From: Parcubacteria group bacterium
GTDB taxonomy: Bacteria > Patescibacteriota > Minisyncoccia > JACPHC01
Assembly (NCBI GenBank): GCA_016188775.1
Contig: JACPHC010000007.1
Coordinates: 28,097-92,096 of the forward strand
Reading direction: 5' to 3'
Length of the DNA stretch: 64,000 nt
In this document: positions 49,080 through 64,000 of the stretch, one piece after another
Layout of the letters: the number at the start of each line of letters is the position of its first letter
How positions within the stretch are numbered: the first letter of the stretch is position 1
Made by a program: the position numbers and the translations under genes
The notes under the pieces: generated by a model
Told to the model about the DNA's origin: nothing
Databases searched by the model: none
The model's input: only the letters and a program-made list of their open reading frames with translations

Positions 49080-49645
49080 ATTAATTTTTTATTTTTCAAA
49101 TATTGGCGAATTGTTTTAAGCGCCCGGCATTGAATTTGCCTGACTGTTTCTTCTTTTTTCCCCAAAATTCCGGCGATTTCTTTATTAGTCAAATCATTAA
49201 TGAATTTTAAAATAATAACCGTTTGCTGTTCTTCTTTCAAAAATTGGATTGCCTGATAAATTATTTTTTGGTCCTCTTTTTCTTTTAATGATTCTTCTAA
49301 TGTCTGACGAGGCGTTTGAAGTATGTCTTGGTTGTTCGTGAGGATTTCTTTTTTCTTTCGCCAATAATCTATTAAAGTGTTTCTTGCTACCGTAAAAAAA
49401 TAGGCAAGCGGCGTTTTATTTTTTTCTTGGAATCTACCGATGGATTTATAAACTTTTATAAAAACATCCTGCGTTAAATCTTCAGTCACGGTTTTATTTT
49501 TTAATCTGAAATAGATATAGCGAAAAACCGGCGTGAAATAGAGACGATATAGATTATCGAAAGCCGTTTTATCGCCTATTTTCGCCATCATCATTAAATT
49601 TTTCGGATCCTCGGTAATTTCTTCTTTAAAAAAACTAATTTTCAT
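49076..49645 (-). CDS. ECF-type RNA polymerase sigma-70 factor
   Basis: Region 2 DLTQDVFIKVYKSIGRF; region 4 HTH LTNKEIAGILGKKEETVRQI. Confidence 0.8.
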   Translation of the reverse strand: MKISFFKEEITEDPKNLMMMAKIGDKTAFDNLYRLYFTPVFRYIYFRLKNKTVTEDLTQDVFIKVYKSIGRFQEKNKTPLAYFFTVARNTLIDYWRKKKEILTNNQDILQTPRQTLEESLKEKEDQKIIYQAIQFLKEEQQTVIILKFINDLTNKEIAGILGKKEETVRQIQCRALKTIRQYLKNKKLI

Positions 49646-49689: not shown

Positions 49690-51300
49690 CTAATTGGATT
49701 CGGATTTTTTCATTATTTTATAAACCGCGAAAAGAATTAAAGAAGCGATAATGACAGCGCCGGCGCCCAAAAGCGTTTTTAAATTTTCTTTTTGAATTAT
49801 TCCAGAGATACTTGCCGCGATTTGAGACTGAATGGGACTGTTTATTTCTGATTTTAAATCGGCAAGATTTATCGGCGCCGGAGATGATTTTTGAATTTGT
49901 TTTTCTAAAATTACCTTATTAACCGGCATTTTAACGCTGTTTTTATTTTCCGGTTCTTCGGCTGAATTAAAAATATTTTTCCCGCCGGGCGTCGAATTTT
50001 CCGTCCAGCTGAAAGTCCCGTCGGTTTTTCGTCCGGCTGAAAATCCTTCCAGGGCTTTGTCGTAGGCGATTTTATCGGCTATTTCGCCATTGGGATAAAT
50101 AAGATCAATTTCGCCGCCTTTATTATTTAGGGCTAATTTAGTCGTTGGTCGGGATAAAATAAGATAGCCTTTGCCTGAAATAAAAGTTTCTTCGTGAAAA
50201 ATAAAAGCTTTTGAACCGTCCGGCCCGTCGTCTAATTTCCATTGGCTTAAATTTATCAGCCGATTGTTATCATTAAAAATTTCTATCCATTCGGCCTCAA
50301 TGTCTTTGCCGATAGGCGATGGCATAAATTCGTTAATAAAAATGCCCGTTGGCAATATTTGGACGTTTAGCTGATCGGTTTTTGCGGCAACGCCGTCCGA
50401 GATGATTAAAGCGGCAATATAATCGCCTTCATATTTATAATTATGCTCGATTTTTATGCCTTCGCCGGTTTGGCCGTCTCCAAAATTCCATTTATAAGTC
50501 AGTTGAGAATTATTTGGATTTGAGGAATTTGAACCGTCAAAAATAACCGTTTGGCCGGCTTTAGCTTGAACATCTTTTCCGGCATCAGCGGTAAAAGATT
50601 CGGGCGAATTAATCGATTGCGTCTCGGGTGTTGGCAAAGAAGTTTGATTTGAAGAAGAAGTTTGAGTCGTTGTTGCATTGATTGAATTATCAGTTTGAAT
50701 TGTTTGAATCGTTAAAATAGAATTTTGCGATCTGGGAGTGCCGATAATTGGATTTCCAAGCGCGTCTTTTCCGTTAATGGTTATCTGATTATTTGTTTGC
50801 CACGATCCATCAGTTGCTTTTTCCATTGAAGCTTTTAAATCATTCTTTCCGGCTGGCCAGACGGACAAAGCGTCGATTTCATCAATAATATTTCCAGCGG
50901 CGTCTTTTAAAACAAGACGTTCTCCGGCATTGGCCAGCCCGTTTCCGTCGCCAAATGATCCAGAAACATCGGCCTTAATATCGGAAATCGTGCTGTCATC
51001 GGTGCGTTCAATTAAATAATAATTATTAGGAGAAATATTTCCGACCAAAGAAATAATTTTTGTATCTCCGCCGGCCTCGTAAAGAACCCAACCTTCTAAA
51101 TTTATCGTCTCGGAAGTCTTATTGAAAAGTTCAATCCATTCGTCCGAAAAGCTCGCCTTTGTTCCCATCCAGGCGACTTCATTTATAATGACGTCGCCGG
51201 TCGCGGTTCCGTAAGAAATTTTTGGGAAAAAAATAAAATAAAAAGAGATAAAAAATAAACCGGCGCCAGATAGTATAATTTTTAGCGATTTTCTTTTCAT
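49690..51300 (-). CDS. secreted surface protein with two lamin-tail (LTD) domains and a PKD domain, C-terminal transmembrane anchor
   Basis: Two VIINEVAW...EWIELFN LTD patterns; PKD WNFGDG...Y..G.Y. The start is chosen at MKRKSLKIIL (signal peptide); the listed ORF extends to 51381. Confidence 0.6.
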   Translation of the reverse strand: MKRKSLKIILSGAGLFFISFYFIFFPKISYGTATGDVIINEVAWMGTKASFSDEWIELFNKTSETINLEGWVLYEAGGDTKIISLVGNISPNNYYLIERTDDSTISDIKADVSGSFGDGNGLANAGERLVLKDAAGNIIDEIDALSVWPAGKNDLKASMEKATDGSWQTNNQITINGKDALGNPIIGTPRSQNSILTIQTIQTDNSINATTTQTSSSNQTSLPTPETQSINSPESFTADAGKDVQAKAGQTVIFDGSNSSNPNNSQLTYKWNFGDGQTGEGIKIEHNYKYEGDYIAALIISDGVAAKTDQLNVQILPTGIFINEFMPSPIGKDIEAEWIEIFNDNNRLINLSQWKLDDGPDGSKAFIFHEETFISGKGYLILSRPTTKLALNNKGGEIDLIYPNGEIADKIAYDKALEGFSAGRKTDGTFSWTENSTPGGKNIFNSAEEPENKNSVKMPVNKVILEKQIQKSSPAPINLADLKSEINSPIQSQIAASISGIIQKENLKTLLGAGAVIIASLILFAVYKIMKKSESN

Positions 51301-51392
51301 ACGCGTCAATATAAATATCAAACTAAATTTAGTCAAGACAAATTTAACAAACAGAAAATAAAGCGTTAGATTAATTTTCATTATTCATCGGA

Positions 51393-51699: not shown

Positions 51700-52320
51700 A
51701 TGAACCAGTTTTCCGAAAAAAATCTTAAATTAGCTATTGCTCTCCATCGTTTAACGACCTTTTTCCCCGAAGAAGAGATTCTGAAAAACCAGCTTCAAGA
51801 AAAAGCCAATGAAATATTTACTAATTCTTATTTGTTGGAAGAAGATGGCTTGAATCTGCCTGACGATAAGAGAATTGATGTTAAATATAATTTATTGGCC
51901 AGCCTTCGTTTAATGAACGGTTTTTTGCTTTTAGCCAAAAATTTGGATTTCCCCAAAAAAGAAAGCCTGGAAATATTGGAAAATGAATATCAGAAAATTT
52001 TCGAACAATTAAAGTATAAATTTGAAGAAAAAATTAACCATTTTGAAAGAGAAATTGATAGCGTTGAAAAAGAAAAGGAGCCGATTTTATCCCAGCTTTC
52101 TTCCCGACAATTAAGAATTATCAAAGAGATTAAGAAAAACAAAGAAATGCGAGTGGGGGATTTGGCCCATACTTTTGGAAACCGGTTTTCTCCCAAAACA
52201 TTTCAGCGGGAACTTCAAGAATTAATGGCTAGAGGATTAATTGAAAGAACCGGAGATTATAAAAACACTTATTATGTTTTATCCCGAGGGCTTGAAAAAG
52301 TTATAAACCCCGTTCATTAA
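51700..52320 (+). CDS. DNA-binding protein with a C-terminal winged helix-turn-helix (possible regulator or replication-initiator-like protein)
   Basis: C-terminal LSSRQLRIIKEIKKNKEMRVGDLAHTFG...ELMARGLIERTGDYKNTYYVL wHTH pattern, followed directly by a repeat array. Confidence 0.45.
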   Translation: MNQFSEKNLKLAIALHRLTTFFPEEEILKNQLQEKANEIFTNSYLLEEDGLNLPDDKRIDVKYNLLASLRLMNGFLLLAKNLDFPKKESLEILENEYQKIFEQLKYKFEEKINHFEREIDSVEKEKEPILSQLSSRQLRIIKEIKKNKEMRVGDLAHTFGNRFSPKTFQRELQELMARGLIERTGDYKNTYYVLSRGLEKVINPVH

Positions 52321-53000: not shown

Positions 53001-53586
53001 GGAGTGGCAGAATTGACATTTTTTGAATTTTAAAATAGAGTGTTTTTCGATTATTGTTTGTTCATTGTTTGACATTGAAAAATTTGTTATTATTAGTTTA
53101 TCAGGCTTTAAAAAAAGTTATCCACAGTTGTAGGCTTGCAGTGAAAAATAGAAGTCGCTATAATAATAAAGAAATGAATTTTAGTCGGCATTTTCTACGA
53201 TGATTAAGCCTTTTTGGCTTATTTTGACATTATAAATTTGAAAGCTTTGCCGGATATTGTTAAAATAAAATTAGCTTGCAATTCGCGAGTTATAATTTAT
53301 AAATTGTAATCCGCGAATTGCAAGTCCGGATCCTTGAAAATTAAATATGAAACAGTATGGTTGAGAGATAAAAGTATTATTAGTATTCTTAAATTTTTTT
53401 CTGTTTGTTAGCTTCGTGGTCGATGAAATTGGAAATCAAAAAAAGTCGAATTTTTTTGATTCAATAATTTCAGCTCTCTCTAAAAATTTGACATTATAAA
53501 TTAGAAAAATAAAATTGACAGGCTTAAGAAGATTGTCGGTTTTCTTAGCCTTGAAAAATTAATTAAAATTAAATCAAAATTAAATT

Positions 53587-56500
53587 ATGGAAAGTATATT
53601 AAGTTCCAGAATGAAAAAAGGGATTTCAAAAATCTCTTCAATCGTTCTGACTTTGACTACTACCATTTGGCTGTCGGGCCTTGCTGCCTTGATGCCAGTG
53701 GCCGTAGTTCACGCGGTTCATACTCCCGCCACCGAAAGTTTCACCTTCAAGAAAACGCTTAAATTCGGTTCGCGGGGCACTGATGTAACCGAACTCCAGC
53801 AAATCCTGATTGACGAAGGATTTCTGGATATAGACGAGCCAACTGGATATTATGGAAGTTTAACAAGAACGGCAGTTATGGATTTACAGGAAGAAAATGA
53901 TTTGCCGAGAGTTGGCGTAGTTGGTCCGTTAACTCGCGCGATATTAAATGATGTTCTTGAAGGAGGAACGGCCACTCCGGCTCCGGCTCCAACTCCGACT
54001 CCGACTCCGACCGCGACAGTTCTCGGAGTAAAAGTAGCTTCAGACACTCCGGCAGCCGGACCGGTGGCTAAAAACTCGCAAGATGTTTCAATGACAAAAT
54101 TAGATTTCACCGCGGGTGATTCAGATGTCACTATTTCATCTTTGAAGGTGACTCGAAGCGGTCTTTCCGCCGACTCAGATGTTTCTAACGTCAAATTATG
54201 GTGGAAAGGCGTTCAAATTGGTTCAACTCAAGCTCTTTCAACCACTACTCACACAGCGACCTTTACCGGTCTTAATGTGGTAGTCGCGAAAAACACGACT
54301 GAATCAATTTTGATCAGCGCTACTATAGCGGCTAGCCCGACCGTTGGCGACACTATTGTTCTTGGTATTGCCGCTCAAGGCGATATCACTTCAACGGTAG
54401 CGTTTTCAGGCACTTATCCTTTAAATGGTAATGCTAAAACAACTGCCGGCATTTCCGTCGGTCAGCTCGATGTTGATAAACAAACAACTCCGGCCGCGGC
54501 CACTATTCTTTCCGGCGCTACCGATCAGTCTATTGCGGCTTGGAAATTCGCGGCCAATGCCACTGAAGGATTTAAGGTTCAGAAAGTCAAAATTACCAAT
54601 ACCGGTTCAGCGGTTCCTGCTGATGTTTCTAATTTGAAACTGAAAATCGGCGCTGACGTGGTCAGTCCGACCGTTACCGCTTTAGGAGCGGATCAGACAG
54701 TCACCTTTGATCTTTCCGCCAGTCCGATTGCTATTACCGCCGGCACCAATAAGATTATCACCGCTTACGCTGATGTCGCGGCTGGAATCAATTCCGCCCG
54801 GACCATTATTTTTGAGATTACCAATGTCCAAGATGTGATGGCCACTGGCGATAATTCCGGCGGAGGCGTCACTATTACTCAATCAAGCGGCACCGCTTAT
54901 GTTAAACAGACCGGCGCTACTATGACTATTGGCCAGGGCACTTTAACTGTTGCTTTGGATACGGCGGTTAATCCGTCAAATAAGACTTATGTTAAGGGGA
55001 CCCCGGGCCGTCTTTTTTCCGCCTTTAAATTCTCAGCTGGTTCTACTGAAGGCGCTCGGATAACGGAAATTACCTTGACTCGGGTCGGCTCCGGCACAGC
55101 CACTGACCTTTCTAATATCACTTTGGTCAATAACGCCACTAACGCGGTTATTGCCACTGGCGGCAGTATTACCGGCAGCACGGTTAAATTCGGTCTTAAC
55201 ACTATTGGCTATGACGCCACTGGTTTGTTTGATGTGCCTGTTTCCGGCAATGTGACAGTTTTAGTTAAAGCTGACATTGCTTCAGGCGCGACTGCCACCG
55301 CGGTTGATAGTTTGGAGATTGCCGCTAATACCGATATTAAAGCTGATGGTCTGACTTCTAAATATGATATTGCCTCAGGCAGTATTACTGATAGCACTGG
55401 TTCGGGCAGTGAGGCCGACCATACCATTGGCGCTAAAGGCGACTTAACCGCCACTTTGTCAGCCAATGCTCCAGCCGCGGCTAATATCGTTAAAGGCGCG
55501 ACTGGTCTTAAATACGCCACCTTTACTCTAACGGCTGGCGATGGCGAAGATGTGGTTGTTTCCGGCTTGACTTTGACTCTTCAGAAATCAACTGGCACAG
55601 CCGCGGGTTCAGGCGACTTTACTAATGTTAAAGTTGTTAGAAGCGATAATAACGTTCAATACGGTTCAACTGTGGCTTCTCCGACCAGTTCCGCTTCATT
55701 CTCCGGTAATTTAGTGATTCCGGCCGGCACAGCCATTGATCTTCAAGTCTACTCCGATGTCCCGACTGGTTCCGCTTCTACCACCAGCCGCGTCACTATA
55801 AACGCCGCGGGCGATTTGACCTTGACCGGTTCTTCATCCAGCGCTTCAATTACCGCTGGCGGCACATACGCGATTAACGCTAACACAATGACTGTTGCTT
55901 CTGGCACGATTGTTCACGCTATGTTGGCTACTCCTCCGGCTTCCAGTTACGTAATCAATGCCGCCGGAGTAACTCTGGCTAAATTATCCTTGACTGCTGG
56001 CACGGCCGAAGATGTTAAAGTGACTACTATCAAGCTGACGGCCGCGACTTCCGGCGATACCGGATTTGTCGGCGCCAGTACTGCTCAGACTGATTTTGCC
56101 GATCTTAAGCTGGTTGACGATTCAGCCGGTACTAATATCTCTATCAGTCCGTCTGTCTTTACCGACGGCACTCCCGACACTATTACTTACACCGGTCTTG
56201 AATACACAGTGCCTAAAGGCATTCAGAAGATTATTCGAGTCGTTGGCACTGTTAAAGCCTCAACCGGAGTCTATATTATCGGTGTTAAAGCGAATGGCGA
56301 TGTTGTTGGTTCAGGTCTAACTTCCGGCGCTTCTATCAGCTCAACCGGCGGCACAGTTGCTTCTAAGAATATTACTATGACAACTGCCGGCTCTCTGGCT
56401 GTGGCTGATGGCGGCTCTCCGGTTAAAACTATTGTCGCTGTTGGAACTAGCGGCAAAACAGGCGTTGACTTTGCCAGAGTTAAGCTGACCGCCACTAATG

Positions 56501-57399
56501 AGGATATTAAGATTTCCAAGATTGTTATTACCAGATCTGGCGGCGCTAATGGAGATTTCTCCGCTGTTAAACTCTATGACACCACTACCAGTTCTACGGG
56601 TACGCAGATTGGTTCAACTATAAATTTTGTCGGCACTGCCACTACTGTTGATTTTAACTTCAATCCCGGATCTGAATTCGTTGTTACTAAAGACACGGAT
56701 AAATATATTACCGTCAGAGCCGATCTTAACGGCACTTCTACCGGTGCGGCTTCCAATGATCAGCCAATCTTGTCGCTTGCCGCTACCACTGACATCACTG
56801 CCACTGGTGTTGCTTCCGGATCGTCTTCAATCACTATTACCGGCACAGTCACCGGCAACGCTCAAGCCTTAGTCAAGGCTAAGCCGATTATTGAAAAAGT
56901 GGCCTTGTCAACTCTTGATATTACTCCGGGCGTTATGACTGTGTTTAAGCTCAAGATTACGGCTGATGGTGGCGATGTTAAATTCTTAAGTTCGACTGCT
57001 TCCAATAATATGAAATTTACCATCGCGCAGGCTGGAGGCACGACAACAACGAGAAATATCAAGATTGTCTTATCAACCGCTCCGGGCACTGTTTATGATC
57101 AAAACGCTAACAGCGCTACAACTGGAGCGGGCAACATTGATTTCACAACCGCTGGCACGGCCAACTTCGGATTTGAAGAAAATGAATTGACTGTTTTCTC
57201 CGGTACGCCGGTTACTCTTGATGTTCAGGCTGACTTGACCGATTACGCCACAGCCGGTGAATCATTCAGGCTTGATATAAATAATGCCAACACTGATCTT
57301 AGTTACAATGACGGAAGCGCGACAACCTCTGATATCAATTTGACAAGTTTCCTTGGTTATGGATTGCCAATTACCGGCGATACTGTGACTAAGAAATAA
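53587..57399 (+). CDS. giant (1270-aa) surface protein: signal/anchor, peptidoglycan-binding domain, TP-rich linker, at least 10 tandem Ig-like repeats of about 95 aa
   Basis: PG_binding_1 pattern (TELQQILIDEGFL...GYYGSLTRTAVMDLQ), linker PAPAPTPTPTPT, then repeated ...LTATLSANAPAAANIVKGATGLKYATFTLTAG...V..L.L type units. GC content is higher than the flanks. Confidence 0.65.
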   Translation: MESILSSRMKKGISKISSIVLTLTTTIWLSGLAALMPVAVVHAVHTPATESFTFKKTLKFGSRGTDVTELQQILIDEGFLDIDEPTGYYGSLTRTAVMDLQEENDLPRVGVVGPLTRAILNDVLEGGTATPAPAPTPTPTPTATVLGVKVASDTPAAGPVAKNSQDVSMTKLDFTAGDSDVTISSLKVTRSGLSADSDVSNVKLWWKGVQIGSTQALSTTTHTATFTGLNVVVAKNTTESILISATIAASPTVGDTIVLGIAAQGDITSTVAFSGTYPLNGNAKTTAGISVGQLDVDKQTTPAAATILSGATDQSIAAWKFAANATEGFKVQKVKITNTGSAVPADVSNLKLKIGADVVSPTVTALGADQTVTFDLSASPIAITAGTNKIITAYADVAAGINSARTIIFEITNVQDVMATGDNSGGGVTITQSSGTAYVKQTGATMTIGQGTLTVALDTAVNPSNKTYVKGTPGRLFSAFKFSAGSTEGARITEITLTRVGSGTATDLSNITLVNNATNAVIATGGSITGSTVKFGLNTIGYDATGLFDVPVSGNVTVLVKADIASGATATAVDSLEIAANTDIKADGLTSKYDIASGSITDSTGSGSEADHTIGAKGDLTATLSANAPAAANIVKGATGLKYATFTLTAGDGEDVVVSGLTLTLQKSTGTAAGSGDFTNVKVVRSDNNVQYGSTVASPTSSASFSGNLVIPAGTAIDLQVYSDVPTGSASTTSRVTINAAGDLTLTGSSSSASITAGGTYAINANTMTVASGTIVHAMLATPPASSYVINAAGVTLAKLSLTAGTAEDVKVTTIKLTAATSGDTGFVGASTAQTDFADLKLVDDSAGTNISISPSVFTDGTPDTITYTGLEYTVPKGIQKIIRVVGTVKASTGVYIIGVKANGDVVGSGLTSGASISSTGGTVASKNITMTTAGSLAVADGGSPVKTIVAVGTSGKTGVDFARVKLTATNEDIKISKIVITRSGGANGDFSAVKLYDTTTSSTGTQIGSTINFVGTATTVDFNFNPGSEFVVTKDTDKYITVRADLNGTSTGAASNDQPILSLAATTDITATGVASGSSSITITGTVTGNAQALVKAKPIIEKVALSTLDITPGVMTVFKLKITADGGDVKFLSSTASNNMKFTIAQAGGTTTTRNIKIVLSTAPGTVYDQNANSATTGAGNIDFTTAGTANFGFEENELTVFSGTPVTLDVQADLTDYATAGESFRLDINNANTDLSYNDGSATTSDINLTSFLGYGLPITGDTVTKK

Positions 57400-57454
57400 C
57401 TTGCTTGACTTAAAAATCTAGTTTCTTTGCCTAGTTTTTAAGCCTGATTTCTTC

Positions 57455-57522
57455 CCTTGATGGTTTAAACCTCAAGGGAGGATAATCAAAAGCCCTTGTT
57501 TTAACAAGGGCTTTTGATTATC
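57455..57522 (+). terminator. tandem rho-independent terminator hairpins after the giant gene
   Basis: ccttga..tcaagg stem, then aaaagcccttgtt/aacaagggctttt as a perfect 13-bp stem. Confidence 0.55.
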
Positions 57523-57607
57523 CAGATTTAAATTATTTTAAATTTTAATTCTAAATTCACGCTTCTACGGACGATCGTCGCTAAATGTGTAAATTTTTTA
57601 GAGTTTA

Positions 57608-57637
57608 TTGACTTTAAACTTTCTACTTTGCTACAAT
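57608..57637 (+). promoter_or_regulatory. candidate sigma70 promoter for hicB (TTGACT-18-TACAAT)
   Basis: Read directly from the sequence; 9 nt upstream of the hicB ATG. Confidence 0.35.
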
Positions 57638-57645
57638 TAATTTAA

Positions 57646-57864
57646 ATGAAAAAAACATCTTTAACTAACATAGTTTGGAAAGAAGGTAAATATTATGTTG
57701 CCCAATGTCTTAACGTTGACGTGTCAAGTTTTGGCAGAACAAAAGCCGAAGCTTTAAAAAATCTTGAAGAAGCGCTTGAACTTTATTTTGAAGATTTTTC
57801 CATTTCTAAAATTATTCGCGTAGAAAAGCCGGTTTTTGTTGAATTGTCTTTTTCAAATGCCTAA
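57646..57864 (+). CDS. hicB: HicB-family antitoxin
   Basis: GKYYVAQCLNVDVSSFGRTKAEALKNLEEALELYFE matches the HicB/UPF0150 N-domain pattern. Confidence 0.6.
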   Translation: MKKTSLTNIVWKEGKYYVAQCLNVDVSSFGRTKAEALKNLEEALELYFEDFSISKIIRVEKPVFVELSFSNA

Positions 57865-57967
57865 GTTTTATTCTTCTCGATACATCATTAAAGTCCTGGA
57901 AAAACAGGGCTTTATTTTTATTATGTATCCGCCGAATACCCCATCTCCCATAAGGAGACGGGATTGA
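57857..57967 (+). pseudogene. hicA: truncated hicA toxin gene (only about 22 native codons) interrupted by the GC-hairpin repeat element
   Basis: MPKFYSSRYIIKVLEKQGFIFI matches the HicA N-terminus (..KVLEK.GF..). The frame then runs into repeat sequence (MYPPNTPSPIRRRD*). Its start overlaps the hicB stop. Confidence 0.5.
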
Positions 57968-58080
57968 GGCGGCGAGCGAAGCGAGTCTGAATCGAGCGAG
58001 GCAAGTTGGTCGAGCCGAGCGAGAACTTTTCATAACAAAGCATTATCACAATGCCGCGCCGCAAGCGGCGCGGATGCTTT
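57917..58080 (-). repeat. full-length copy D of the GC-hairpin repeat family (reverse orientation), inserted into hicA
   Basis: Its reverse complement matches 19515..19695 except for a 24-nt indel. The listed ORF 57812..58033 (MKSSRSA...) is its translation. Confidence 0.6.
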
Positions 58081-58091
58081 ATTTCTCAAAC

Positions 58092-60257
58092 ATGATAAAA
58101 AAAAATATATTAAAGAAAATTATTCGCTTGGGCGTGTATTTAATAATTTTTACCCCTCTTTTAGTTTTTTCTGCCACTATTTATCCTGCTTTGACCGGAA
58201 AAGTTGTTATTTTCCGTATTTTAATTGAAATTTTATTTATTTTTTGGCTTTTCTTGATTTTTTTTTATAAAGAATATCGGCCCAATTTAAAATCTCCGCT
58301 TTTTTTGTCAATTTTTATATTTATATCAGTTTCTTTTATCTCCGCTTTTTTAGGAATTAATCCTTGGCAAAGTTTTTTCAGCACTGCCGACCGTTTAATG
58401 GGTATTTTCACTTGGCTGCATTTTTTTGGTCTTTTTTTGATAATTTCAATTTTCTCTAAAGAGGAGCGGGAAAAATTTTTAAAACTTACCTTATTCGTCA
58501 GTTTTCTCGTTAGCCTTTCCGCGATTTATCAAAGAATTAATCCCGATTTTCTTTCTTTTGGCAGCAGCGAACGTCTGGCCGGCACTATTGAAAACCCGGG
58601 TTTTTTTGCCAGTTATTTAATTCCGCATATTTTTTTGGCCCTGTATTTTGTTTTTCAGAATTATTCCGCATCCAATATCTCAAATTTTATATTTTACATT
58701 TTTTATTCCCAATATTTTTGGCTTCTTCTTCTGGAATCTTTGATGTTGTTTTTTACCGGCACTCGGGGCGCGATTTTAGCTTTTGGATTTACTTTGATTT
58801 TATTAGTTTTTCTTTTTAGTTTTACGAGGCTAAGCCTCGTAAAAAGCGATTTTAAAAATTCGTTTCCGAAGTTTTTTAGACGTCCGGCATCTTTAATTTT
58901 GGCAGTTTTAATATTAATTTTTGCTCTAGGTTTTCTTTTTCGCCATCAACCGTTTTTTTATCAGATTCCATTTTTGAAACGTTTCGCCGGACTTTCTTTT
59001 AACGATCCGACAATTCAGACGAGATTTTTAACTTGGAAAATAGCTTTTAAGGGATGGCAAGAACGGCCATTTTTTGGCTGGGGTCCGGAAAATTTTAATA
59101 TTCCATTTAATAAATATTATGATCCGTCTTTTTTGAAATACGGTTTTCAAGAAACATGGTTTGACCGGGCGCATAATATCATTTTTGATAATTTAATAGC
59201 CGCCGGTCTTTTAGGTCTTATTAGTTATTTGGCTATTTTTTTCAGCGCTTTTTATTTGATTTTTAAATCAAAGGAATTTATAACTCAAAAATTAGTTTTA
59301 ATCGCCGGACTTCTCGCCTATTTTATTCAAAATCTTTTTATTTTTGATACCTTTGTCGGTTTATTGCCTTTATTTTTAGTTTTTGGTTTTATCAATACTC
59401 AATCCGTTTCCCGGCCTTTATTGGAATTATCCGGCAAAACCGGAAAAATTTTAAAATTATTTATTTTTTTTGTCGTCGGAGCATTAATTTTTACAGCCTT
59501 AGTTGTAAATTTTTCCACTTTTAAAAACGCTGTTAGTTTAAGAAACGCCATTTTAGCTGAATTGAAGAATAATTTTAATCTTTCCAGAAATATAACTAAA
59601 AAAAATTTAAGTTCTTTTTATCCTTATAAAGAAGAAACTGGCTTGCAATTTATGGCATTTATAAAACAATCTTTTGATAAAGGGTTAGATAGAGGAGAAG
59701 CGATTCAAGATATAAAATTAGCGGAAGATTTTTTTTCTTTAATCTCCTCCCGCCACAAAAAAAATTCGTTTTTATATTTCCAATATGGCAATTTTTTAAA
59801 TTCAGCCGCTAATTACGATAAAGCTTATCTCGCTAAAACCGATGAAGTGTTTAATAAAGCTTTGGAATTAAGCCCTCGGCGTCAGCAAATTCATCATTCT
59901 CTTGGAGTTAATAAAATAATGGAAGGAGAATATGAAGAGGCGATTTGGATATTTAAAAAATCCGCTTCTTTTTATAACGCGGCTCCCGATCCCCATTTTT
60001 ATTTAGGTCTTGCTTATTTTGCGATGAAAGACGAGAAAAACGGATTTGTTGAAATTGAGAAAGCCTTGGAATTCGGCTACACTGCGAAAACGCCGGAAGA
60101 AGGATTATATTTAGGGGATATTTATGAAAAAAATATTAATCTTCAAAAAGCCCTTTTTTTCTACGAATCGGCTTTATCGCTGGATCCGCAAAACAAAAAA
60201 ATTCAAGCCAAAGTTGAAACGATTAAAAATCAATTAAATAATGAAACTTCCAACTGA
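58092..60257 (+). CDS. polytopic membrane protein with an O-antigen-ligase/polymerase-like (Wzy_C) domain and C-terminal TPR repeats
   Basis: At least 10 transmembrane helices; WGPENF...FDRAHNIIFD (Wzy_C AHN motif); a C-terminal TPR region of about 250 aa. The start is moved to MIKKNIL because the listed start lies inside the repeat. Confidence 0.6.
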   Translation: MIKKNILKKIIRLGVYLIIFTPLLVFSATIYPALTGKVVIFRILIEILFIFWLFLIFFYKEYRPNLKSPLFLSIFIFISVSFISAFLGINPWQSFFSTADRLMGIFTWLHFFGLFLIISIFSKEEREKFLKLTLFVSFLVSLSAIYQRINPDFLSFGSSERLAGTIENPGFFASYLIPHIFLALYFVFQNYSASNISNFIFYIFYSQYFWLLLLESLMLFFTGTRGAILAFGFTLILLVFLFSFTRLSLVKSDFKNSFPKFFRRPASLILAVLILIFALGFLFRHQPFFYQIPFLKRFAGLSFNDPTIQTRFLTWKIAFKGWQERPFFGWGPENFNIPFNKYYDPSFLKYGFQETWFDRAHNIIFDNLIAAGLLGLISYLAIFFSAFYLIFKSKEFITQKLVLIAGLLAYFIQNLFIFDTFVGLLPLFLVFGFINTQSVSRPLLELSGKTGKILKLFIFFVVGALIFTALVVNFSTFKNAVSLRNAILAELKNNFNLSRNITKKNLSSFYPYKEETGLQFMAFIKQSFDKGLDRGEAIQDIKLAEDFFSLISSRHKKNSFLYFQYGNFLNSAANYDKAYLAKTDEVFNKALELSPRRQQIHHSLGVNKIMEGEYEEAIWIFKKSASFYNAAPDPHFYLGLAYFAMKDEKNGFVEIEKALEFGYTAKTPEEGLYLGDIYEKNINLQKALFFYESALSLDPQNKKIQAKVETIKNQLNNETSN

Positions 60258-62427
60258 AAAAAAACTTATTCAAATTTCAGTCATTCTTATTTTTTTATCA
60301 TTATTCTTGCCATCATTTCGTTTTAAAAGTCAGCTTTTTATTCCTTTTAAGTCTTTGCTTTTTCAATTTTTTGTTAGTTTATTATTTTTGATTTATTTTT
60401 ATCTGACGCTTAATAATTCCAAATTTCGTCCTAAATTTTCCTGGTTAAACTTAGCTGTTATTTTATTTTTAATCTCTTCTTTAATTTCTTTATTTTTTGG
60501 GGTTAATCCGGAGAAAAGTTTCTTCGGAACTCTTGAAAGAATGGGGGGATTTCTCTCTCTTTTTTATTATGGCGTTCTCTTTTTTATTTTAAGTCATTTA
60601 TTTAAAGGAGAATACCAAGAAAAATGGCGAAAATTTATAAATTGGAGTTTAATCGCCGGCTTTCTCGCTGCTTTTTGGGGAATAGGACAATGGCTAAAAA
60701 TCTCTTTTTTATTTTTTGAAGGAGAACGGGTAAGCGGGCCGATCGGCAATCCGATTTTTTTCGCTGCTTATCTTCTTTTTATGGTATTTTTTAGTTTATT
60801 ATTTTTTTTGGAATCAAAAACAAAACAAGCAAAAATTTTATACAGCTCTGTTTTGATGATTTCTGTCTTCGCGATCATTCTTTCCGGAAGTCGGGCAGTC
60901 TCCCTCAGTCTTATTTTAGGGTTAATTTTTTTCAGCCTTTTTTACGCTTTTTTAACTCAAAATAAAAAAATAAAAAAAATTTCCGTCGCCGTCGCGATTT
61001 TTATTATTTTGATATTCGGTTCAATTTTATTTTTTAAAAATCAGCCTTTTATTCAAAATAATTTTTATCTTTCTCGATTAGCTCTCGGTTCTTTAAAAGA
61101 TTTTCGGAATCGGTATCTCGCTTGGCAGATCAGTTGGGAAGCTTTTAAAGAGCGGCCCGTTTTTGGCTGGGGCGAGGAAAATTTTAAAATCGCTTTTAAC
61201 AAATATTTTAGTCCAGCCTATTTTGACACGCCAACAGCGGAAGTTTTTTTTGATCGCGCCCATAATGTTATTTTTGATCGCTTAACAAGCATTGGAATCG
61301 TTGGCCTTTTGAGCTATCTTTTTATTTTTCTCGCTATTTATTTGACAGTTTTTCAATTAAAAAAAGGAAAAAAAATAAACGAAGGCCAATTTGTCATTTT
61401 TCTTGTTTTGCCCGCGGCGTATTTTTTGCAGAATTTTTTCGCTTTTGACACCTTCCCGACCTATCTTAAGTTTTTCTTTTTTTTAGCGTATTTAAATTCG
61501 TTTGTTTTAGGTGGCGAGCCCAAAAATAAATTTGAGTTTTTTAAAAAAATAAATTTTCCGTCTCAATATCGTCTTTTTATTTTTATTCCGGTTTCTTTTT
61601 TGATATTTTTCGCGATTTATAAATTTAATATTAAGCCGCTAATTTCAATTTTTTATTATGTTAAGTCTCAAAACGTCCAATTATTGCCAGAAGCGTTGAA
61701 ATACTACAAAAAATCCGTTTCTTTTAATACCTTCGCCAACGCTGACATTCATGATTATTTTTCAAGGCGGTTTTTTCAAAATGTCGCCAATGATTTTATA
61801 AAAACAAAAGAAGAGAAACAAAAATATCTTTTAATGGCCGAGGAGGCGATGCGAAAAGCCGCGATTCTAGACCCCCAAAATTCTGATTTTTGGCTGAAAT
61901 TAGCCGGAATTCAAATAATGCTTGTAGAAAATGACATTAAAGAAGGACTGGAAAGAGCGGAAATTTCTTTAAAAAAAGTTTTGGAATTAAGTCCAAATAA
62001 TTTGCCCGCCCTTCTTGATCTAGCGGAGGTTAAAAGACTTCAGGACCGGCCGGAAATATTTTTAGAGCTGGCAAAAAAGGGCGTAGCATTAAATTCGAAA
62101 TCATCCGTGGCGCATTGGTATTTAGCCGCGGCTTATATCGCGAATAAAAATGAAATTGACGCGCAAAAAGAATTTGATATCGCTTACGGTTCAGGCTACA
62201 AAGAGGATATTCGAGATTTAAGATATCTGGCGGGCATTTATCGAAAATTAAATCAATGGCAGAAAGTCGCGAAATTTTACGAAGAAATTATAAAAAAAGA
62301 TTCAACAAACGCGGATTTTTATCTGCGACTGGCTGAGGCTTATTATAATTTAGGAAAAATCGATCAAGCGGAGAAAATTTTTGAAAAAGCGAAAACGATT
62401 AATCTCGATTTGGAAAAAATAAAATAG
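60241..62427 (+). CDS. tandem paralogue: Wzy_C-like polytopic membrane protein with C-terminal TPR repeats
   Basis: WGEENF...FDRAHNVIFD; same architecture as the upstream gene; 17-nt overlap with it. Confidence 0.6.
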   Translation: MKLPTEKKLIQISVILIFLSLFLPSFRFKSQLFIPFKSLLFQFFVSLLFLIYFYLTLNNSKFRPKFSWLNLAVILFLISSLISLFFGVNPEKSFFGTLERMGGFLSLFYYGVLFFILSHLFKGEYQEKWRKFINWSLIAGFLAAFWGIGQWLKISFLFFEGERVSGPIGNPIFFAAYLLFMVFFSLLFFLESKTKQAKILYSSVLMISVFAIILSGSRAVSLSLILGLIFFSLFYAFLTQNKKIKKISVAVAIFIILIFGSILFFKNQPFIQNNFYLSRLALGSLKDFRNRYLAWQISWEAFKERPVFGWGEENFKIAFNKYFSPAYFDTPTAEVFFDRAHNVIFDRLTSIGIVGLLSYLFIFLAIYLTVFQLKKGKKINEGQFVIFLVLPAAYFLQNFFAFDTFPTYLKFFFFLAYLNSFVLGGEPKNKFEFFKKINFPSQYRLFIFIPVSFLIFFAIYKFNIKPLISIFYYVKSQNVQLLPEALKYYKKSVSFNTFANADIHDYFSRRFFQNVANDFIKTKEEKQKYLLMAEEAMRKAAILDPQNSDFWLKLAGIQIMLVENDIKEGLERAEISLKKVLELSPNNLPALLDLAEVKRLQDRPEIFLELAKKGVALNSKSSVAHWYLAAAYIANKNEIDAQKEFDIAYGSGYKEDIRDLRYLAGIYRKLNQWQKVAKFYEEIIKKDSTNADFYLRLAEAYYNLGKIDQAEKIFEKAKTINLDLEKIK

Positions 62428-62585
62428 TTATCCACATTGACACGATTTTTCAATATGAAATAATTAAAATAGAGCAGATGATTATTTACGATCTTTCAAA
62501 AAATAATGAGCGAGTCGTCATCGCTTGTTAAAATTAAAAAGTTTAAAACTTAAATTTAAAAATTTATGTTTTAAACAAAACCTAG

Positions 62586-62624
62586 ATGGCAGCCAAGAAA
62601 AAGGCCAAGAAGAAAAAGAAGTAA
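62586..62624 (+). other. micro-ORF encoding MAAKKKAKKKKK followed immediately by a strong terminator
   Basis: A 12-codon Lys-rich ORF; the terminator hairpin at 62633..62667 begins 9 nt after its stop. Confidence 0.2.
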
Positions 62625-62632
62625 TTTTATTT

Positions 62633-62667
62633 CAACCTCTCCTAATAATAGGAGAGGTTGATTTTTT
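62633..62667 (+). terminator. rho-independent terminator (aacctctcc/ggagaggtt)
   Basis: 9-bp stem, 8-nt loop, T-tract. Confidence 0.55.
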
Positions 62668-62696
62668 ATTCTTTAAATTATAATTTGACAAAAACT

Positions 62697-62730
62697 TTGA
62701 TACTACTTAGTATTAAAGAAAATGTTAAAA
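62697..62730. repeat. degenerate copy of the 60-bp palindromic element (tttgatactacttagtattaaagaaaatg)
   Basis: Differs from the core tttcatactacgtagtatgaaagaaaatg at 3 positions. It lies about 55 bp upstream of the yerC-like gene. Confidence 0.45.
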
Positions 62731-62782
62731 AATAAAATATAAATTGTATTAAATTAATTTTTTTTAAATATCCTAAATTTAG

Positions 62783-63313
62783 ATGGCTAAATTTTTAAAA
62801 AGGAATCGTTTAACCAAAGAAGAGCAAGAAAAAGCGGTGCTTACTCTTTGCCAGGCCTTGGTTGTTATTAAAGATTTTAATGAGGCGGCAAGTTTACTTG
62901 TTGATCTTTTTTCACGTCAAGAAATGGAAATGATAGCCAAACGTTTAATGATTGCTAAATTTCTTATTCAAGGGAAAAGTTACGATGATATTCGTCAAAA
63001 TCTAAAAGTGAGTCATGCTACTATCGCGAGGGTTAGCTCTTGGCTAGAACAATCCGGCGCGGGGTATCGTTTAGTGATTGAACGGTCAAAAAATTTAAAA
63101 TTATCAGAATTATCAAAAAGCAAGATTTCCAATTGGAGTCAATTGAGACGACGTTATCCTTTATATTTTTGGCCCCAGATTCTTCTTGAAGAAATAGTTC
63201 GTAAAGCGCAAAAAAGAGATCGAGATAAATTACTTAATACCTTAGATGTATTGAAAAAAGCGGGAGAAAAGAATCAACTTTTTAAACAATTAGAAAATCT
63301 TTTAAGAAGATAA
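62783..63313 (+). CDS. TrpR-related YerC/YecD-family DNA-binding protein
   Basis: AKRLMIAKFLIQGKSYDDIRQNLKVSHATIARVS matches the Trp-repressor-like HTH pattern; 176 aa. Confidence 0.5.
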   Translation: MAKFLKRNRLTKEEQEKAVLTLCQALVVIKDFNEAASLLVDLFSRQEMEMIAKRLMIAKFLIQGKSYDDIRQNLKVSHATIARVSSWLEQSGAGYRLVIERSKNLKLSELSKSKISNWSQLRRRYPLYFWPQILLEEIVRKAQKRDRDKLLNTLDVLKKAGEKNQLFKQLENLLRR

Positions 63314-63335
63314 AATTTAATTATATTAATTATTA

Positions 63336-63390
63336 CATTTTCTTTCATACTACGTAGTATGAAAGAAAATTTAATTTTGATTTTGAAACC
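63336..63390. repeat. right (inverted) copy of the 60-bp palindromic element, with the GGTTTCAAAATCAA arm on the outside
   Basis: cattttctttcatactacgtagtatgaaagaaaat plus ttaattttgattttgaaacc. It is the reverse complement of the left copy's outer arm. Confidence 0.65.
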
Positions 63391-63588
63391 CCCTGATGAA
63401 AATGAAAATTTCATCTAACGCCTTATTTTCCGTTTGTTTTTCAAAACAGATTATCTCCATTACAATTTATGATGACAATTCAGCCGGAGTTATTACCTAT
63501 TAATTTGCCTCAGGAGTCCAAAATTGGGTGGCATTATGCATTGATTTGACATTTTATTATCATTTGTTAGTTTTAAATTTATCAAAAT

Positions 63589-64000
63589 ATGATTAAAAAT
63601 ATATTCACAAAACAAAATTTAAAGCGAGTCGGGATTGTTATTTTAGGTCTTCTCGCTCTTTTTTTTATCATTATCTTAGCCGGGGATAAATATTACAAAT
63701 ATAGCCAAGAAAAAGCTCAAAAGAAACTTGTTGAGGAAATGAACAGGCCTTATTTGGAAGATACTTATGGAGGAAAAACGCCGGAGGAGACTTTCGCGAT
63801 GTTTTTGGACGCGCTTAAAAAAGGAGATATTGAATTGGCGAGTAAGTATTTTGTGATTGGTAATTTTCAAGAAGAGAATAAAAAATATCTAAAAATATTA
63901 GAAGAAAAAAATAATTTATCACAGTCAATTCAACAATGGGAAGACGCATTAATCTCCGGAACCAAATTTGAAGGAGAAAAAAATGATTATTCTATAACCT
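63589..64000 (+). CDS. membrane-anchored hypothetical protein; the 5' part of a gene that continues past the window end
   Basis: ATG at 63589, a transmembrane helix (VGIVILGLLALFFIIILAG), and an open frame to position 64000. It is not in the ORF track because there is no stop in the window. Confidence 0.4.
   Translation, partial: MIKNIFTKQNLKRVGIVILGLLALFFIIILAGDKYYKYSQEKAQKKLVEEMNRPYLEDTYGGKTPEETFAMFLDALKKGDIELASKYFVIGNFQEENKKYLKILEEKNNLSQSIQQWEDALISGTKFEGEKNDYSIT

What the first reader, a model, noticed from the sequence alone, without database searches (positions are those of the whole stretch)
53587..62427. Giant peptidoglycan-anchored Ig-repeat surface protein followed by two tandem Wzy_C-TPR membrane proteins: a candidate surface-glycoprotein system
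The 1270-aa protein has a signal/anchor sequence, a peptidoglycan-binding domain, a Thr/Pro linker and at least ten Ig-like repeats rich in Thr/Ser/Ala/Gly. It looks like a fibre or S-layer-like adhesin. It is followed, after the hicB remnant, by two overlapping paralogous genes. Each encodes a polytopic membrane protein of 10 or more transmembrane helices with the O-antigen ligase/polymerase (Wzy_C) AHN motif, fused to about 250 aa of C-terminal TPR repeats. Wzy_C enzymes include the O-oligosaccharyltransferases that glycosylate pilins and other Ser/Thr-rich surface proteins (PglL/PilO family). Co-localisation with a Ser/Thr-rich giant protein and with a pilus locus elsewhere in the window makes O-glycosylation of this protein, or of pilins, a testable hypothesis. 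The duplicated Wzy_C-TPR pair is unusual.
Basis: inference. Interest (0 to 1): 0.55.

Follow-up and report, generated by a model that had tools for sequence, protein, structure and literature searches.

The report
Surface protein with candidate glycan-attaching enzymes
In an uncultivated ultra-small (Parcubacteria/CPR) bacterium, the gene for a large cell-wall-bound surface protein is followed by two related membrane enzymes of the type that transfer ready-made sugar chains onto surface molecules, and comparison with related genomes suggests, without proving, that they glycosylate this protein much as Gram-positive bacteria glycosylate their S-layers.

Summary
The 1270-aa ORF has a signal peptide, a PG_binding_1 domain, a Thr/Pro linker and an all-beta body. 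That body has 6 clear modules plus one divergent module of about 140-170 aa, not ten or more Ig repeats. The two overlapping ORFs are full-length paralogues (29% identity). Each has a Wzy_C domain, 13 predicted TM helices and about 250 aa of TPR. The AF2 model (pLDDT 92) matches the WaaL ligase structure. A profile of the membrane domain hits only two solved structures, WaaL and a 610-aa "oligosaccharyltransferase". The catalytic-type DRAHN histidine and the conserved arginines are present in both copies. The extra 13th helix places the TPR outside the cell, beside the active-site loop.

This architecture is common in Patescibacteria. It sits in Und-P-type glycan clusters in 40 of 51 metagenome loci and in 6 of 6 annotated loci. 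The giant protein belongs to a conserved Parcubacterial family, and 13 of 16 loci have a sugar cluster directly downstream. In one complete genome that cluster ends in Wzx, the initiating transferase and Wzy_C-TPR. A giant gene followed by Wzy_C-TPR recurs in 6 other loci, and every tandem pair with visible upstream context follows a giant gene. The window itself has no sugar genes, and a link to pili is not supported.

Best reading: an S-layer-like glycoprotein system analogous to Firmicute slg/WsfB. The acceptor is unproven.

The parts
53488..53515 (+). Promoter-like site (TTGACA-16-TAAAAT, 11 of 12 matches), 72 nt upstream of the giant gene's ATG.
   Evidence: This is a consensus match only.
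53587..57399 (+). Giant surface protein, 1270 aa. It belongs to a conserved Parcubacterial family of about 1350-1450 aa and is a candidate S-layer-like protein.
   Evidence: for the ORF; homologues at 35-45% identity over about 85% of the length; family alignment.
53587..53718 (+). Signal peptide or membrane anchor (aa 1-44, ...MPVAVVHA|VHT).
   Evidence: Read from the translation. Not run through a dedicated predictor.
53773..53946 (+). PG_binding_1 domain (aa 63-120).
   Evidence: E 7.1e-12, 45.8 bits against a cutoff of 23.
53962..54024 (+). Thr/Pro/Ala linker (aa 126-146).
   Evidence: read from the sequence.
54034..56829 (+). Six divergent beta-sandwich modules (aa 150-290, 295-425, 455-596, 624-772, 782-925, 955-1081).
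   Evidence: module HMM, i-E 1e-8 to 1e-18 for cross-matches between modules. AF2 pLDDT 87, all beta; multi-Ig matches.
56830..57396 (+). C-terminal region (aa 1082-1270). It contains a weak seventh module and the conserved W1240 and D1242. A loop at aa ~1165-1185 has low model confidence.
57453..57523 (+). Two adjacent strong hairpins just after the giant gene's stop codon. The second has a perfect 20-bp stem. They may act as a terminator or as an mRNA-stabilising 3' structure.
   Evidence: -48.2 kcal/mol, z -8.7, 0 of 200 shuffles fold as well.
57646..57864 (+). 72-aa HicB-like ORF with its own promoter-like site (57608-57637). It is followed by a short HicA-like stub (~57861-57920). This is an insertion between the giant gene and the enzyme pair, not part of the system.
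   Evidence: DUF7387, 26.8 bits against a cutoff of 27.9.. The HicB/HicA resemblance is judged by eye.
58074..60257 (+). Wzy_C-TPR enzyme A (727 aa; probable start at 58092, giving 721 aa). TM1-13 span aa 1-~497, the catalytic-type motif is F363-D-R-A-H367-N, and the TPR domain spans aa ~498-721.
   Evidence: (AF2 pLDDT 92, pTM 0.91).
60241..62427 (+). Wzy_C-TPR enzyme B (728 aa), a paralogue of A. Its FDRAHN motif lies at aa 337-342 and its TPR domain at aa ~472-728.
62632..62668 (+). Intrinsic terminator-like hairpin (13-bp stem followed by a T-run) after the enzyme pair.
   Evidence: -21.6 kcal/mol, z -7.4.

Best explanation
The locus encodes a secreted surface protein and two enzymes that probably glycosylate it.

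The surface protein is non-covalently bound to peptidoglycan and is built of about seven beta-sandwich modules. It is a candidate S-layer or sheath subunit of this Parcubacterium.

The two paralogous enzymes belong to the WaaL/PglL (Wzy_C) superfamily. Their active-site loop and their C-terminal TPR domain both face the outside of the cytoplasmic membrane.

Proposed mechanism:
1. A glycan is assembled on undecaprenyl phosphate by an initiating phosphoglycosyltransferase and GT4/GT2 transferases encoded elsewhere in this genome.
2. Wzx flips the lipid-linked glycan to the outer face.
3. The Wzy_C-TPR enzymes transfer it en bloc from Und-PP. The conserved DRAHN histidine and the arginines bind the pyrophosphate and activate the acceptor.
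4. The acceptor is Ser/Thr hydroxyls of the Thr/Ser-rich surface protein as it emerges from Sec.
5. The TPR solenoid docks the protein acceptor.

What is shown: the fold, the conserved residues, the outward-facing topology, the embedding of the family in Und-P-type glycan clusters, and the recurrent synteny with the giant family.

What is inferred: that the acceptor is protein, and this protein in particular; that transfer is en bloc; and what the two paralogues each do. They might handle two glycans or two acceptor classes, or divide the work as polymerase plus transferase.
For: FOLD AND RESIDUES
- Wzy_C scores are above the Pfam cutoff.
- AF2 gives pLDDT 92.
- The only membrane protein among the top 50 Foldseek PDB hits is WaaL 7tpg_B (TM-score on target 0.66).
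- The N-domain profile hits only WaaL (7e-14) and 9rmk_A 'Oligosaccharyltransferase' (1.1e-12) among 177,635 PDB sequences. H367 aligns with the histidine of their xHxHN motif, and R231 and R317 align with their arginines.
- R107, N174, R317, D364 and H367 are invariant in 67 homologues, both window copies included.

TOPOLOGY
- The WaaL-like 12-TM core is followed by a 13th helix (aa 458-497).
- The K/R-rich loops lie on the cytoplasmic side.
- Together these place the TPR outside the membrane.

PATHWAY CONTEXT
- 6 of 6 annotated homologue loci lie in sugar clusters. Four of them include Bac_transf and three include Wzx. None lists Wzz or LCP.
- 40 of 51 metagenome loci have sugar genes. 12 of 62 have a divergent initiating transferase directly upstream.

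LINK TO THE GIANT PROTEIN
- 13 of 16 giant-family loci have a sugar cluster downstream.
- In CP179889.1 the order is giant, then a 19-kb sugar cluster, then Wzx and the initiating transferase, then Wzy_C-TPR, then a 565-aa giant paralogue.
- The giant gene is followed by Wzy_C-TPR in L002, L024, L084, L087 and L109, as well as in the window.
- All 4 tandem pairs with visible upstream context follow a giant gene.

PRECEDENT
- WsaB and WsfB, the predicted O-oligosaccharyltransferases (O-OTases) for S-layer proteins, have Wzy_C. WsfB and PglL carry a C-terminal TPR motif. S-layer genes are monocistronic and can lie close to slg clusters (PMC2943079).
- Dedicated O-OTase genes lie directly downstream of their pilin acceptor genes, and they require a conserved histidine (PMC9829042).
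- A studied Parcubacterium lacks lipid A genes, so the WaaL acceptor is absent (PMC5220378).
Against: - No glycan-synthesis gene lies anywhere in the 64-kb window.
- The giant gene and the pair are separated by 675 bp. That gap holds strong hairpins, a toxin-antitoxin remnant and a separate promoter-like site, so they are not co-transcribed.
- Wzy_C cannot be split by sequence into ligase, O-OTase and polymerase. The family is equidistant from WaaL and the oligosaccharyltransferase.
- Only 7 of 51 Wzy_C-TPR loci have a giant-family gene nearby. Most family members therefore act without this neighbour.
- The synteny could equally reflect a wall polysaccharide that the surface protein needs.
- TPR domains also occur in polysaccharide-export machinery.
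- There are no glycoproteomic data.
Confidence: 0.5

Rival explanations
1. The Wzy_C-TPR proteins act on a non-protein acceptor. They would be either Wzy-type polymerases or ligases for a cell-wall or sheath polysaccharide, for example a secondary wall polymer or a lipid-anchored glycan. The giant protein is linked only because it sits in, or binds to, that polymer. With two paralogues, one could polymerise and the other ligate.
For: - Pfam Wzy_C covers polymerases as well as ligases, and sequence does not discriminate between them.
- The family sits in classical Wzx plus initiating-transferase clusters with many GTs.
- Most loci have no giant-family neighbour (44 of 51).
- In Firmicutes, S-layer genes also cluster with secondary-wall-polymer genes (general knowledge).
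- TPR domains occur in polysaccharide-export proteins. The weak NCBIfam TPR hits include PgaA and PrsT.
Against: - No Wzz/PCP or LCP family is listed in the six Pfam-annotated neighbourhoods.
- Two clusters hold other polytopic proteins without a Pfam assignment that could be the polymerase: L003 (561 aa) and L028 (510 aa, weak PMT_2 match).
- Where the sugar genes have moved away, the giant gene and Wzy_C-TPR stay adjacent (window and L024). This fits an enzyme-substrate pairing better.
- Among characterised Wzy_C proteins, a TPR motif is reported for the protein-targeting members WsfB and PglL.
Confidence: 0.3
2. The pair glycosylates type IV pilins in the manner of TfpO/PilO/PglS. The pilus locus at 15-26 kb in the window would supply the substrates.
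For: - A complete T4P locus with several pilins is present in the window.
- Known pilin O-OTases are Wzy_C proteins.
- A general O-OTase could modify pilins as well as other proteins.
Against: - The pair lies about 32 kb from the pilin genes.
- Dedicated pilin O-OTases lie directly downstream of their pilin.
- Only 3 of 80 Wzy_C-TPR loci have pilin-like genes within 10 kb.
Confidence: 0.07
3. The adjacency has no functional meaning. The Wzy_C-TPR genes were displaced from their sugar cluster and landed next to the giant gene by rearrangement, as the toxin-antitoxin remnant between them hints. Alternatively, they have a role unrelated to glycans, for example IctB-like transport.
For: - They are separate transcription units with a mobile-type toxin-antitoxin remnant between them.
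- The window has no sugar genes.
- Protein B has a weak IctB-family hit (38 bits against a cutoff of 366).
Against: - The same adjacency occurs in five other loci that are only about 30% identical.
- Catalytic residues are conserved in both copies.
- The IctB score is far below its cutoff.
Confidence: 0.1

Closest known systems
S-layer protein O-glycosylation (slg) systems of Bacillales: WsfB of Paenibacillus alvei, and WsaB with WsaA of Geobacillus stearothermophilus, with their S-layer genes spaA and sgsE
   Same: - A monoderm-type envelope.
- A Wzy_C-domain transferase predicted to move a Und-PP-assembled glycan onto Ser/Thr/Tyr of a large secreted surface protein.
- A C-terminal TPR motif in WsfB, or a separate TPR protein (WsaA).
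- An S-layer gene that is monocistronic and, in Geobacillus, lies close to the slg cluster.
(PMC2943079.)
   Different: - A different phylum (Patescibacteria).
- The acceptor is an unrelated family anchored by PG_binding_1 rather than SLH.
- The TPR domain is a full solenoid of about 250 aa, attached after an extra 13th TM helix.
- There are two tandem paralogues.
- No sugar genes lie in the 64-kb window.
PglL/PglS/TfpO/TfpM O-oligosaccharyltransferases of Proteobacteria
   Same: - Wzy_C domain with an essential conserved histidine.
- En bloc transfer from Und-PP-glycan at the outer face of the membrane.
- Dedicated enzymes are encoded directly downstream of their acceptor gene (PMC9829042).
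- The profile hits the 610-aa 'oligosaccharyltransferase' structure 9rmk_A at E 1.1e-12 over profile positions 128-410.
   Different: - Identity is only about 15-20%.
- The acceptors there are pilins or periplasmic proteins of diderms.
- Those enzymes have no long TPR solenoid.
- I take 9rmk to be Neisseria PglL from memory of the sequence. This is not verified.
WaaL O-antigen ligase (Cupriavidus metallidurans, PDB 7TPG)
   Same: - Best structural match: TM-score on target 0.66 over 468 columns.
- Profile E 7e-14.
- The same 12-TM core, with an external loop carrying Arg/His.
   Different: - WaaL has no TM13 or TPR.
- Its acceptor, lipid A-core, is not expected in CPR bacteria.
TPR-bearing protein glycosyltransferases (eukaryotic OGT, SPY, TMTC1-4)
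   Same: - The TPR solenoid is fused to the catalytic module and is used for protein-substrate recognition.
- The TPR part of the model matches OGT and SPY TPR domains best.
   Different: The catalytic folds and donors are unrelated. This is a functional analogy only.

Membership tests
Wzy_C / WaaL-PglL superfamily (O-antigen ligase-like) | Pfam PF04932 match above the gathering score | tested here: met
   A scores 71.8 bits and B scores 70.6 bits against a cutoff of 31.7.
Wzy_C / WaaL-PglL superfamily (O-antigen ligase-like) | 12-TM WaaL-like fold | tested here: met
   AF2 pLDDT 92; 7tpg_B at E 5.9e-6, probability 1.0, TM-score on target 0.66, 468 columns.
Wzy_C / WaaL-PglL superfamily (O-antigen ligase-like) | Conserved histidine and arginines in or near the large external loop | tested here: met
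   R107, R317, D364 and H367 are invariant, and R231 is conserved in at least 90% of sequences; these align to the WaaL and OTase motifs; the motif is present in both window copies.
Protein O-oligosaccharyltransferase (PglL / TfpO / WsfB type) | Transfers Und-PP-linked glycan to Ser/Thr/Tyr of a protein | not testable with these tools
   Needs glycoproteomics or a heterologous transfer assay.
Protein O-oligosaccharyltransferase (PglL / TfpO / WsfB type) | Genetic linkage to the acceptor gene and/or to a glycan cluster containing an initiating transferase and a flippase | tested here: inconclusive
   the giant gene is followed by Wzy_C-TPR in 6 loci; the family lies in sugar clusters. The window itself has no sugar genes, and most loci lack a giant neighbour.
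Protein O-oligosaccharyltransferase (PglL / TfpO / WsfB type) | Extracytoplasmic protein-interaction module (a TPR motif, as reported for WsfB and PglL) | tested here: met
   TPR at aa ~498-721. The topology argument puts it outside. One search gives the literature basis. This feature is supportive, not diagnostic.
Wzy O-antigen/capsule polymerase | Works with a Wzz/PCP co-polymerase in the same cluster | tested here: not met
   the Pfam lists for six neighbourhoods show no Wzz/PCP. Precomputed Pfam only, limited sample.
Wzy O-antigen/capsule polymerase | Polymerises Und-PP-linked repeat units | not testable with these tools
   Biochemical assay required.
S-layer protein | Secreted, with a cell-wall-binding module | tested here: met
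   signal sequence. PG_binding_1.
S-layer protein | Self-assembles into a 2D lattice and is among the most abundant proteins | not testable with these tools
   Indirect evidence only: a family of constant length, strong flanking promoter-like and hairpin signals, and cryo-EM of Nealsonbacteria showing 'an apparent S-layer'.
   only DUF7387, at 26.8 bits against a cutoff of 27.9; no NCBIfam hit. The resemblance is judged by eye.

The most novel reading that the evidence does not exclude
The ~1300-1450-aa PG_binding_1 / beta-sandwich family is the long-sought S-layer or sheath protein of Parcubacteria. The Patescibacteria-wide 13-TM Wzy_C-TPR family would then be a phylum-level protein O-glycosylation machinery, with the outward-facing TPR solenoid selecting protein acceptors. 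The conserved tandem pairs next to the S-layer gene would be specialised paralogues, for example for two glycans or for a polymerase-plus-transferase division of labour. This would give CPR bacteria a glycoprotein envelope built by an enzyme class not yet characterised in any monoderm outside Bacillales.
Probability: 0.35. Interest if true: 0.6.

Novelty: new member of a known kind. Interest (0 to 1): 0.42.

Why it matters
The make-up of the CPR/Patescibacteria cell envelope is still unclear (PMC5220378). S-layers have been seen by cryo-EM, but their genes have not been assigned. This locus and its relatives nominate a concrete structural protein family, a conserved sugar cluster and a terminal transferase. 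Each can be tested by metaproteomics or in E. coli glycoengineering strains.

If the transferases are O-OTases with a TPR acceptor-binding module, they would also be a new source of enzymes for bioconjugation.

If they are polymerases or ligases for a wall glycan, the finding is ordinary surface-polysaccharide biology.

Tried and rejected
- Self-BLAST of the giant protein found no repeats. A family-derived module HMM was needed to detect them.
- A full-length profile (A1) searched against PDB sequences was swamped by TPR proteins. A single-sequence search with the N-terminal domain found nothing. A 15-sequence alignment of the N-terminal domain alone (A4) was required.
- I tried to extend beyond the window to look for sugar genes. 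P0001 is not on record. Protein B occurs only on 5.3-kb Logan contigs. The ORF running off the window end at ~63600 is a small membrane protein, not a GT.
- NCBIfam gave no equivalog for any of the three proteins, only sub-threshold TPR or IctB noise.
- Pfam on polytopic neighbours without a family assignment in other clusters, which are possible separate polymerases, gave only a sub-threshold PMT_2 hit.
- Literature searches for CPR Wzy_C-TPR, for Saccharibacteria O-antigen ligase, and for PDB 9RMK found nothing specific.
- One-to-one orthology of window A and B with the conserved copy-1 and copy-2 subfamilies of L084, L087 and L042 was not found. B is weakly closest to copy 2, and A is not closest to copy 1. 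The window's duplication may therefore be independent or simply older.
- The pilin-glycosylation reading is rejected as the conserved role on synteny grounds.

Full report
**What is there**

The window is chromosomal DNA of a Parcubacteria-group (CPR/Patescibacteria) MAG. Protein A is 100% identical to an NCBI record named [quoted passage not shown] on a 94,994-bp contig.

The rest of the window carries housekeeping genes: RecG, LigA, GatA, MurD, PheST and GyrB. It also carries two-component systems, a type IV pilus locus at 15-26 kb, and wall enzymes.

The three ORFs of the finding exist as described.

**The giant protein**

The giant protein (53587-57399, 1270 aa) has these features:
- A hydrophobic N-terminal signal ending in VHA|VHT.
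- A PG_binding_1 domain at aa 63-120.
- A Thr/Pro/Ala linker.
- A Thr/Ala/Gly/Ser-rich body (47% TSAG).

- Self-BLAST sees no repeats.
- An HMM built from one module of the family alignment finds six clear modules of about 130-150 aa, plus one weak C-terminal module.
- AF2 on aa 140-1270 with 53 homologues gives pLDDT 87.4 and an all-beta chain.
- That model matches only generic multi-Ig or beta-sandwich proteins in the PDB: mastigoneme, alpha-2-macroglobulins, PrgB Ig-like domains, integrins and AgI/II.

The protein belongs to a conserved family of rather constant length (mostly 1350-1450 aa). Members share 35-45% identity over about 85% of the length. They occur in Nealsonbacteria, Spechtbacteria, Portnoybacteria and Kazan, among other groups.

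**The two enzymes**

A (58074-60257; the likely start is M7 at 58092) and B (60241-62427) overlap by 17 nt. They are full-length paralogues at 29% identity. Both pass the Pfam Wzy_C cutoff and carry C-terminal TPRs.

AF2 of A with 67 homologues is confident (pLDDT 92, pTM 0.91). It shows thirteen TM helices followed by a TPR solenoid.

Structural and sequence comparison:
- The only membrane protein among the top 50 Foldseek PDB hits is the WaaL O-antigen ligase 7tpg_B, with probability 1.0 and a TM-score on target of 0.66 over 468 columns. The remaining hits are TPR proteins, led by OGT and SPY.
- A profile of the membrane domain alone hits exactly two PDB sequences: WaaL (7e-14) and 9rmk_A, a 610-aa "Oligosaccharyltransferase" (1.1e-12). 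I believe 9rmk_A is Neisseria PglL, from memory and unverified.
- The family's DRAHN histidine aligns with the histidine of their xHxHN motif, and R231 and R317 align with their arginines.
- R107, N174, R317, D364 and H367 are invariant across 67 homologues, both window copies included.

Topology: WaaL has 12 TM helices with both ends in the cytoplasm. Here a 13th helix (aa 458-497) follows a K/R-rich loop. The TPR domain is therefore extracytoplasmic, on the same side as the active-site loop. This is inference from the model and the positive-inside rule.

**How common the architecture is, and where it sits**

The Wzy_C-TPR architecture (about 660-790 aa) is abundant in Patescibacteria. A capped search returned 425 hits, and nearly all of the 120 best hits listed carry the same domains.

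In six Pfam-annotated neighbourhoods from other CPR genomes it always lies inside a sugar cluster.
- The clusters contain NeuB, DegT, epimerases/dehydratases, GT4/GT2/GT9 transferases and methyltransferases.
- Four of the six have a Bac_transf initiating phosphoglycosyltransferase, and three have a Wzx flippase.
- None lists Wzz or LCP.

In a metagenome scan of 80 loci:
- 40 of the 51 loci with at least 8 kb of flank have recognisable sugar genes.
- 17 of those 51 have the initiating transferase.
- In 12 of the 62 loci with at least 1.5 kb upstream, a divergent initiating transferase abuts the gene.

The family is therefore the membrane-embedded terminal enzyme of Und-P-dependent glycan pathways in this phylum.

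**The link with the giant protein**

From the giant-protein side (22 genome loci):
- 13 of the 16 loci with at least 4.5 kb downstream carry a conserved sugar set just downstream of the giant gene. The set is a divergent GT4, UDP-Glc dehydrogenase, two epimerase/dehydratases, DegT and further GT4s. A shorter paralogue sometimes intervenes.
- In the complete Nealsonbacteria genome CP179889.1 the layout is contiguous. The giant gene lies at 227.5-231.6 kb. About 19 kb of sugar genes follow, then Wzx and the initiating transferase, then Wzy_C-TPR at 251-253 kb, and finally a 565-aa giant-family paralogue.

Arrangements in which the giant gene is followed by Wzy_C-TPR, as in the window, occur in five other loci:
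- L024: a tandem pair, cut short by the contig end.
- L002: a second Wzy_C without TPR, followed by sugar genes.
- L084 and L087: a tandem pair, followed by the GT4/epimerase/initiating-transferase set.
- L109: a single copy, followed by GT4s.

Tandem pairs are rare, at 4 of 80 metagenome loci. Every pair whose upstream context is visible follows a giant-family gene: the window, L024, L084 and L087.

In L084, L087 and L042 the first copies are orthologous to each other (44-47% identity). The second copies are also orthologous to each other (38-62%). First and second copies are only about 30% identical. The pair is therefore old and conserved in that clade. The window's A and B cannot be assigned cleanly to these two groups.

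**What weakens the link in this window**

- There is no sugar-pathway gene anywhere in the 64 kb. I could not extend the sequence.
- The giant gene has its own promoter-like site and is followed by two very stable hairpins (-48 kcal/mol, z -8.7).
- Next come a promoter-like site, a 72-aa HicB-like ORF, a HicA-like stub and a GC-rich stretch, and only then gene A.
- The pair ends with a canonical terminator.
- The giant gene and the pair are thus separate transcription units.
- That is also the rule for Firmicute S-layer genes and their slg clusters (PMC2943079).

**Interpretation**

The closest known system is S-layer O-glycosylation in Bacillales. The predicted O-OTases WsaB and WsfB are Wzy_C proteins. 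WsfB, like PglL, has a C-terminal TPR motif. WsaB is preceded by a separate TPR protein. In Geobacillus the S-layer gene lies near the slg cluster.

Dedicated proteobacterial O-OTases (TfpO, TfpM, PglS) lie directly downstream of their acceptor gene and need the conserved histidine.

CPR bacteria studied so far lack lipid A synthesis, so the canonical WaaL acceptor is missing.

I therefore rate a protein O-OTase role, with the neighbouring surface protein as a main acceptor, as the best explanation (about 0.5).

The main rival (about 0.3) is polymerisation or ligation of a wall or sheath polysaccharide. Sequence and fold cannot exclude this, and it would explain the synteny about as well.

Pilin glycosylation is not supported as the conserved role: only 3 of 80 loci have pilin genes nearby.

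**Novelty**

The enzyme class, its fusion to TPR, and the layout of a surface-protein gene beside a glycosylation cluster are all known in kind. I found no paper that describes them in CPR.

What appears to be new:
- The assignment of a concrete candidate S-layer family.
- Its conserved sugar cluster.
- The recurrent enzyme pair.

This is a new member of a known kind, of moderate interest mainly for CPR envelope biology.

Noticed in passing
L026-L028 and 23 of the 51 metagenome loci with at least 8 kb of flank (e.g. L037, L045, L048, L051, L097): In many Patescibacteria, secA lies 0.3-8 kb downstream of Wzy_C-TPR on the same strand. This could be inherited synteny, or a link between Sec export and the transferase.
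   Followed up: partly
window 10380-11963 (-): A second, 527-aa protein with a PG_binding_1 domain is weakly related to the giant family (HMM E 2e-6). Shorter giant-family paralogues of 420-600 aa also lie just downstream of the giant gene or of Wzy_C-TPR in many other genomes (L004, L006, L018, L020, L021, L026, L050, L085, L086, L105).
   Followed up: partly
window 51700-52320 (+) and L010 7456-8229: A winged-helix (DeoR-like) regulator upstream of the giant gene is homologous in the window and in the complete Nealsonbacteria genome (25% identity, E 2e-14). In L010 an ECF sigma factor and a DUF5667 protein lie between the regulator and the giant gene. In the window an ECF sigma factor lies nearby on the opposite strand (49076-49645).
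   Followed up: partly
window 57930-58073: A GC-rich stretch that is unusual for this AT-rich region. It ends in a perfect 8-bp GC hairpin (58054-58073) that abuts the first ATG of gene A. The NCBI start is 18 nt further on. Its function is unknown; it might be a remnant or a regulatory structure.
   Followed up: partly
window 57646-57920: A HicB-like 72-aa ORF with its own promoter-like site, followed by a truncated HicA-like stub. It appears to be a decayed toxin-antitoxin insertion between the giant gene and the enzyme pair.
   Followed up: partly
window 54001-56000 compared with 58001-64000: The giant gene has 49% GC, against 31-32% in the Wzy_C-TPR genes and flanks. The Thr/Ala/Gly-rich composition probably explains this, rather than foreign origin, but I did not test it.
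   Followed up: no
window 49690-51381 (-): A further secreted-type protein of 563 aa with lamin-tail (LTD) and PKD domains lies just upstream of the locus. Giant LTD proteins also lie near Wzy_C-TPR in L001 and L003.
   Followed up: no
L008, L009, L019, L024, L025: Giant-family loci sit in MAGs labelled Saccharibacteria, Aminicenantia or Gammaproteobacteria, yet they have typical Parcubacterial gene content. These are probably mis-binned or mislabelled.
   Followed up: no
L003 354-2039 and L028 1427-2959: Polytopic membrane proteins with no confident Pfam family lie inside the sugar clusters: a 561-aa protein with crude hydropathy peaks (11-14 counted, some overlapping) and a 510-aa protein with a sub-threshold PMT_2 match. 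They could be the true polymerases or further GT-C enzymes.
   Followed up: partly
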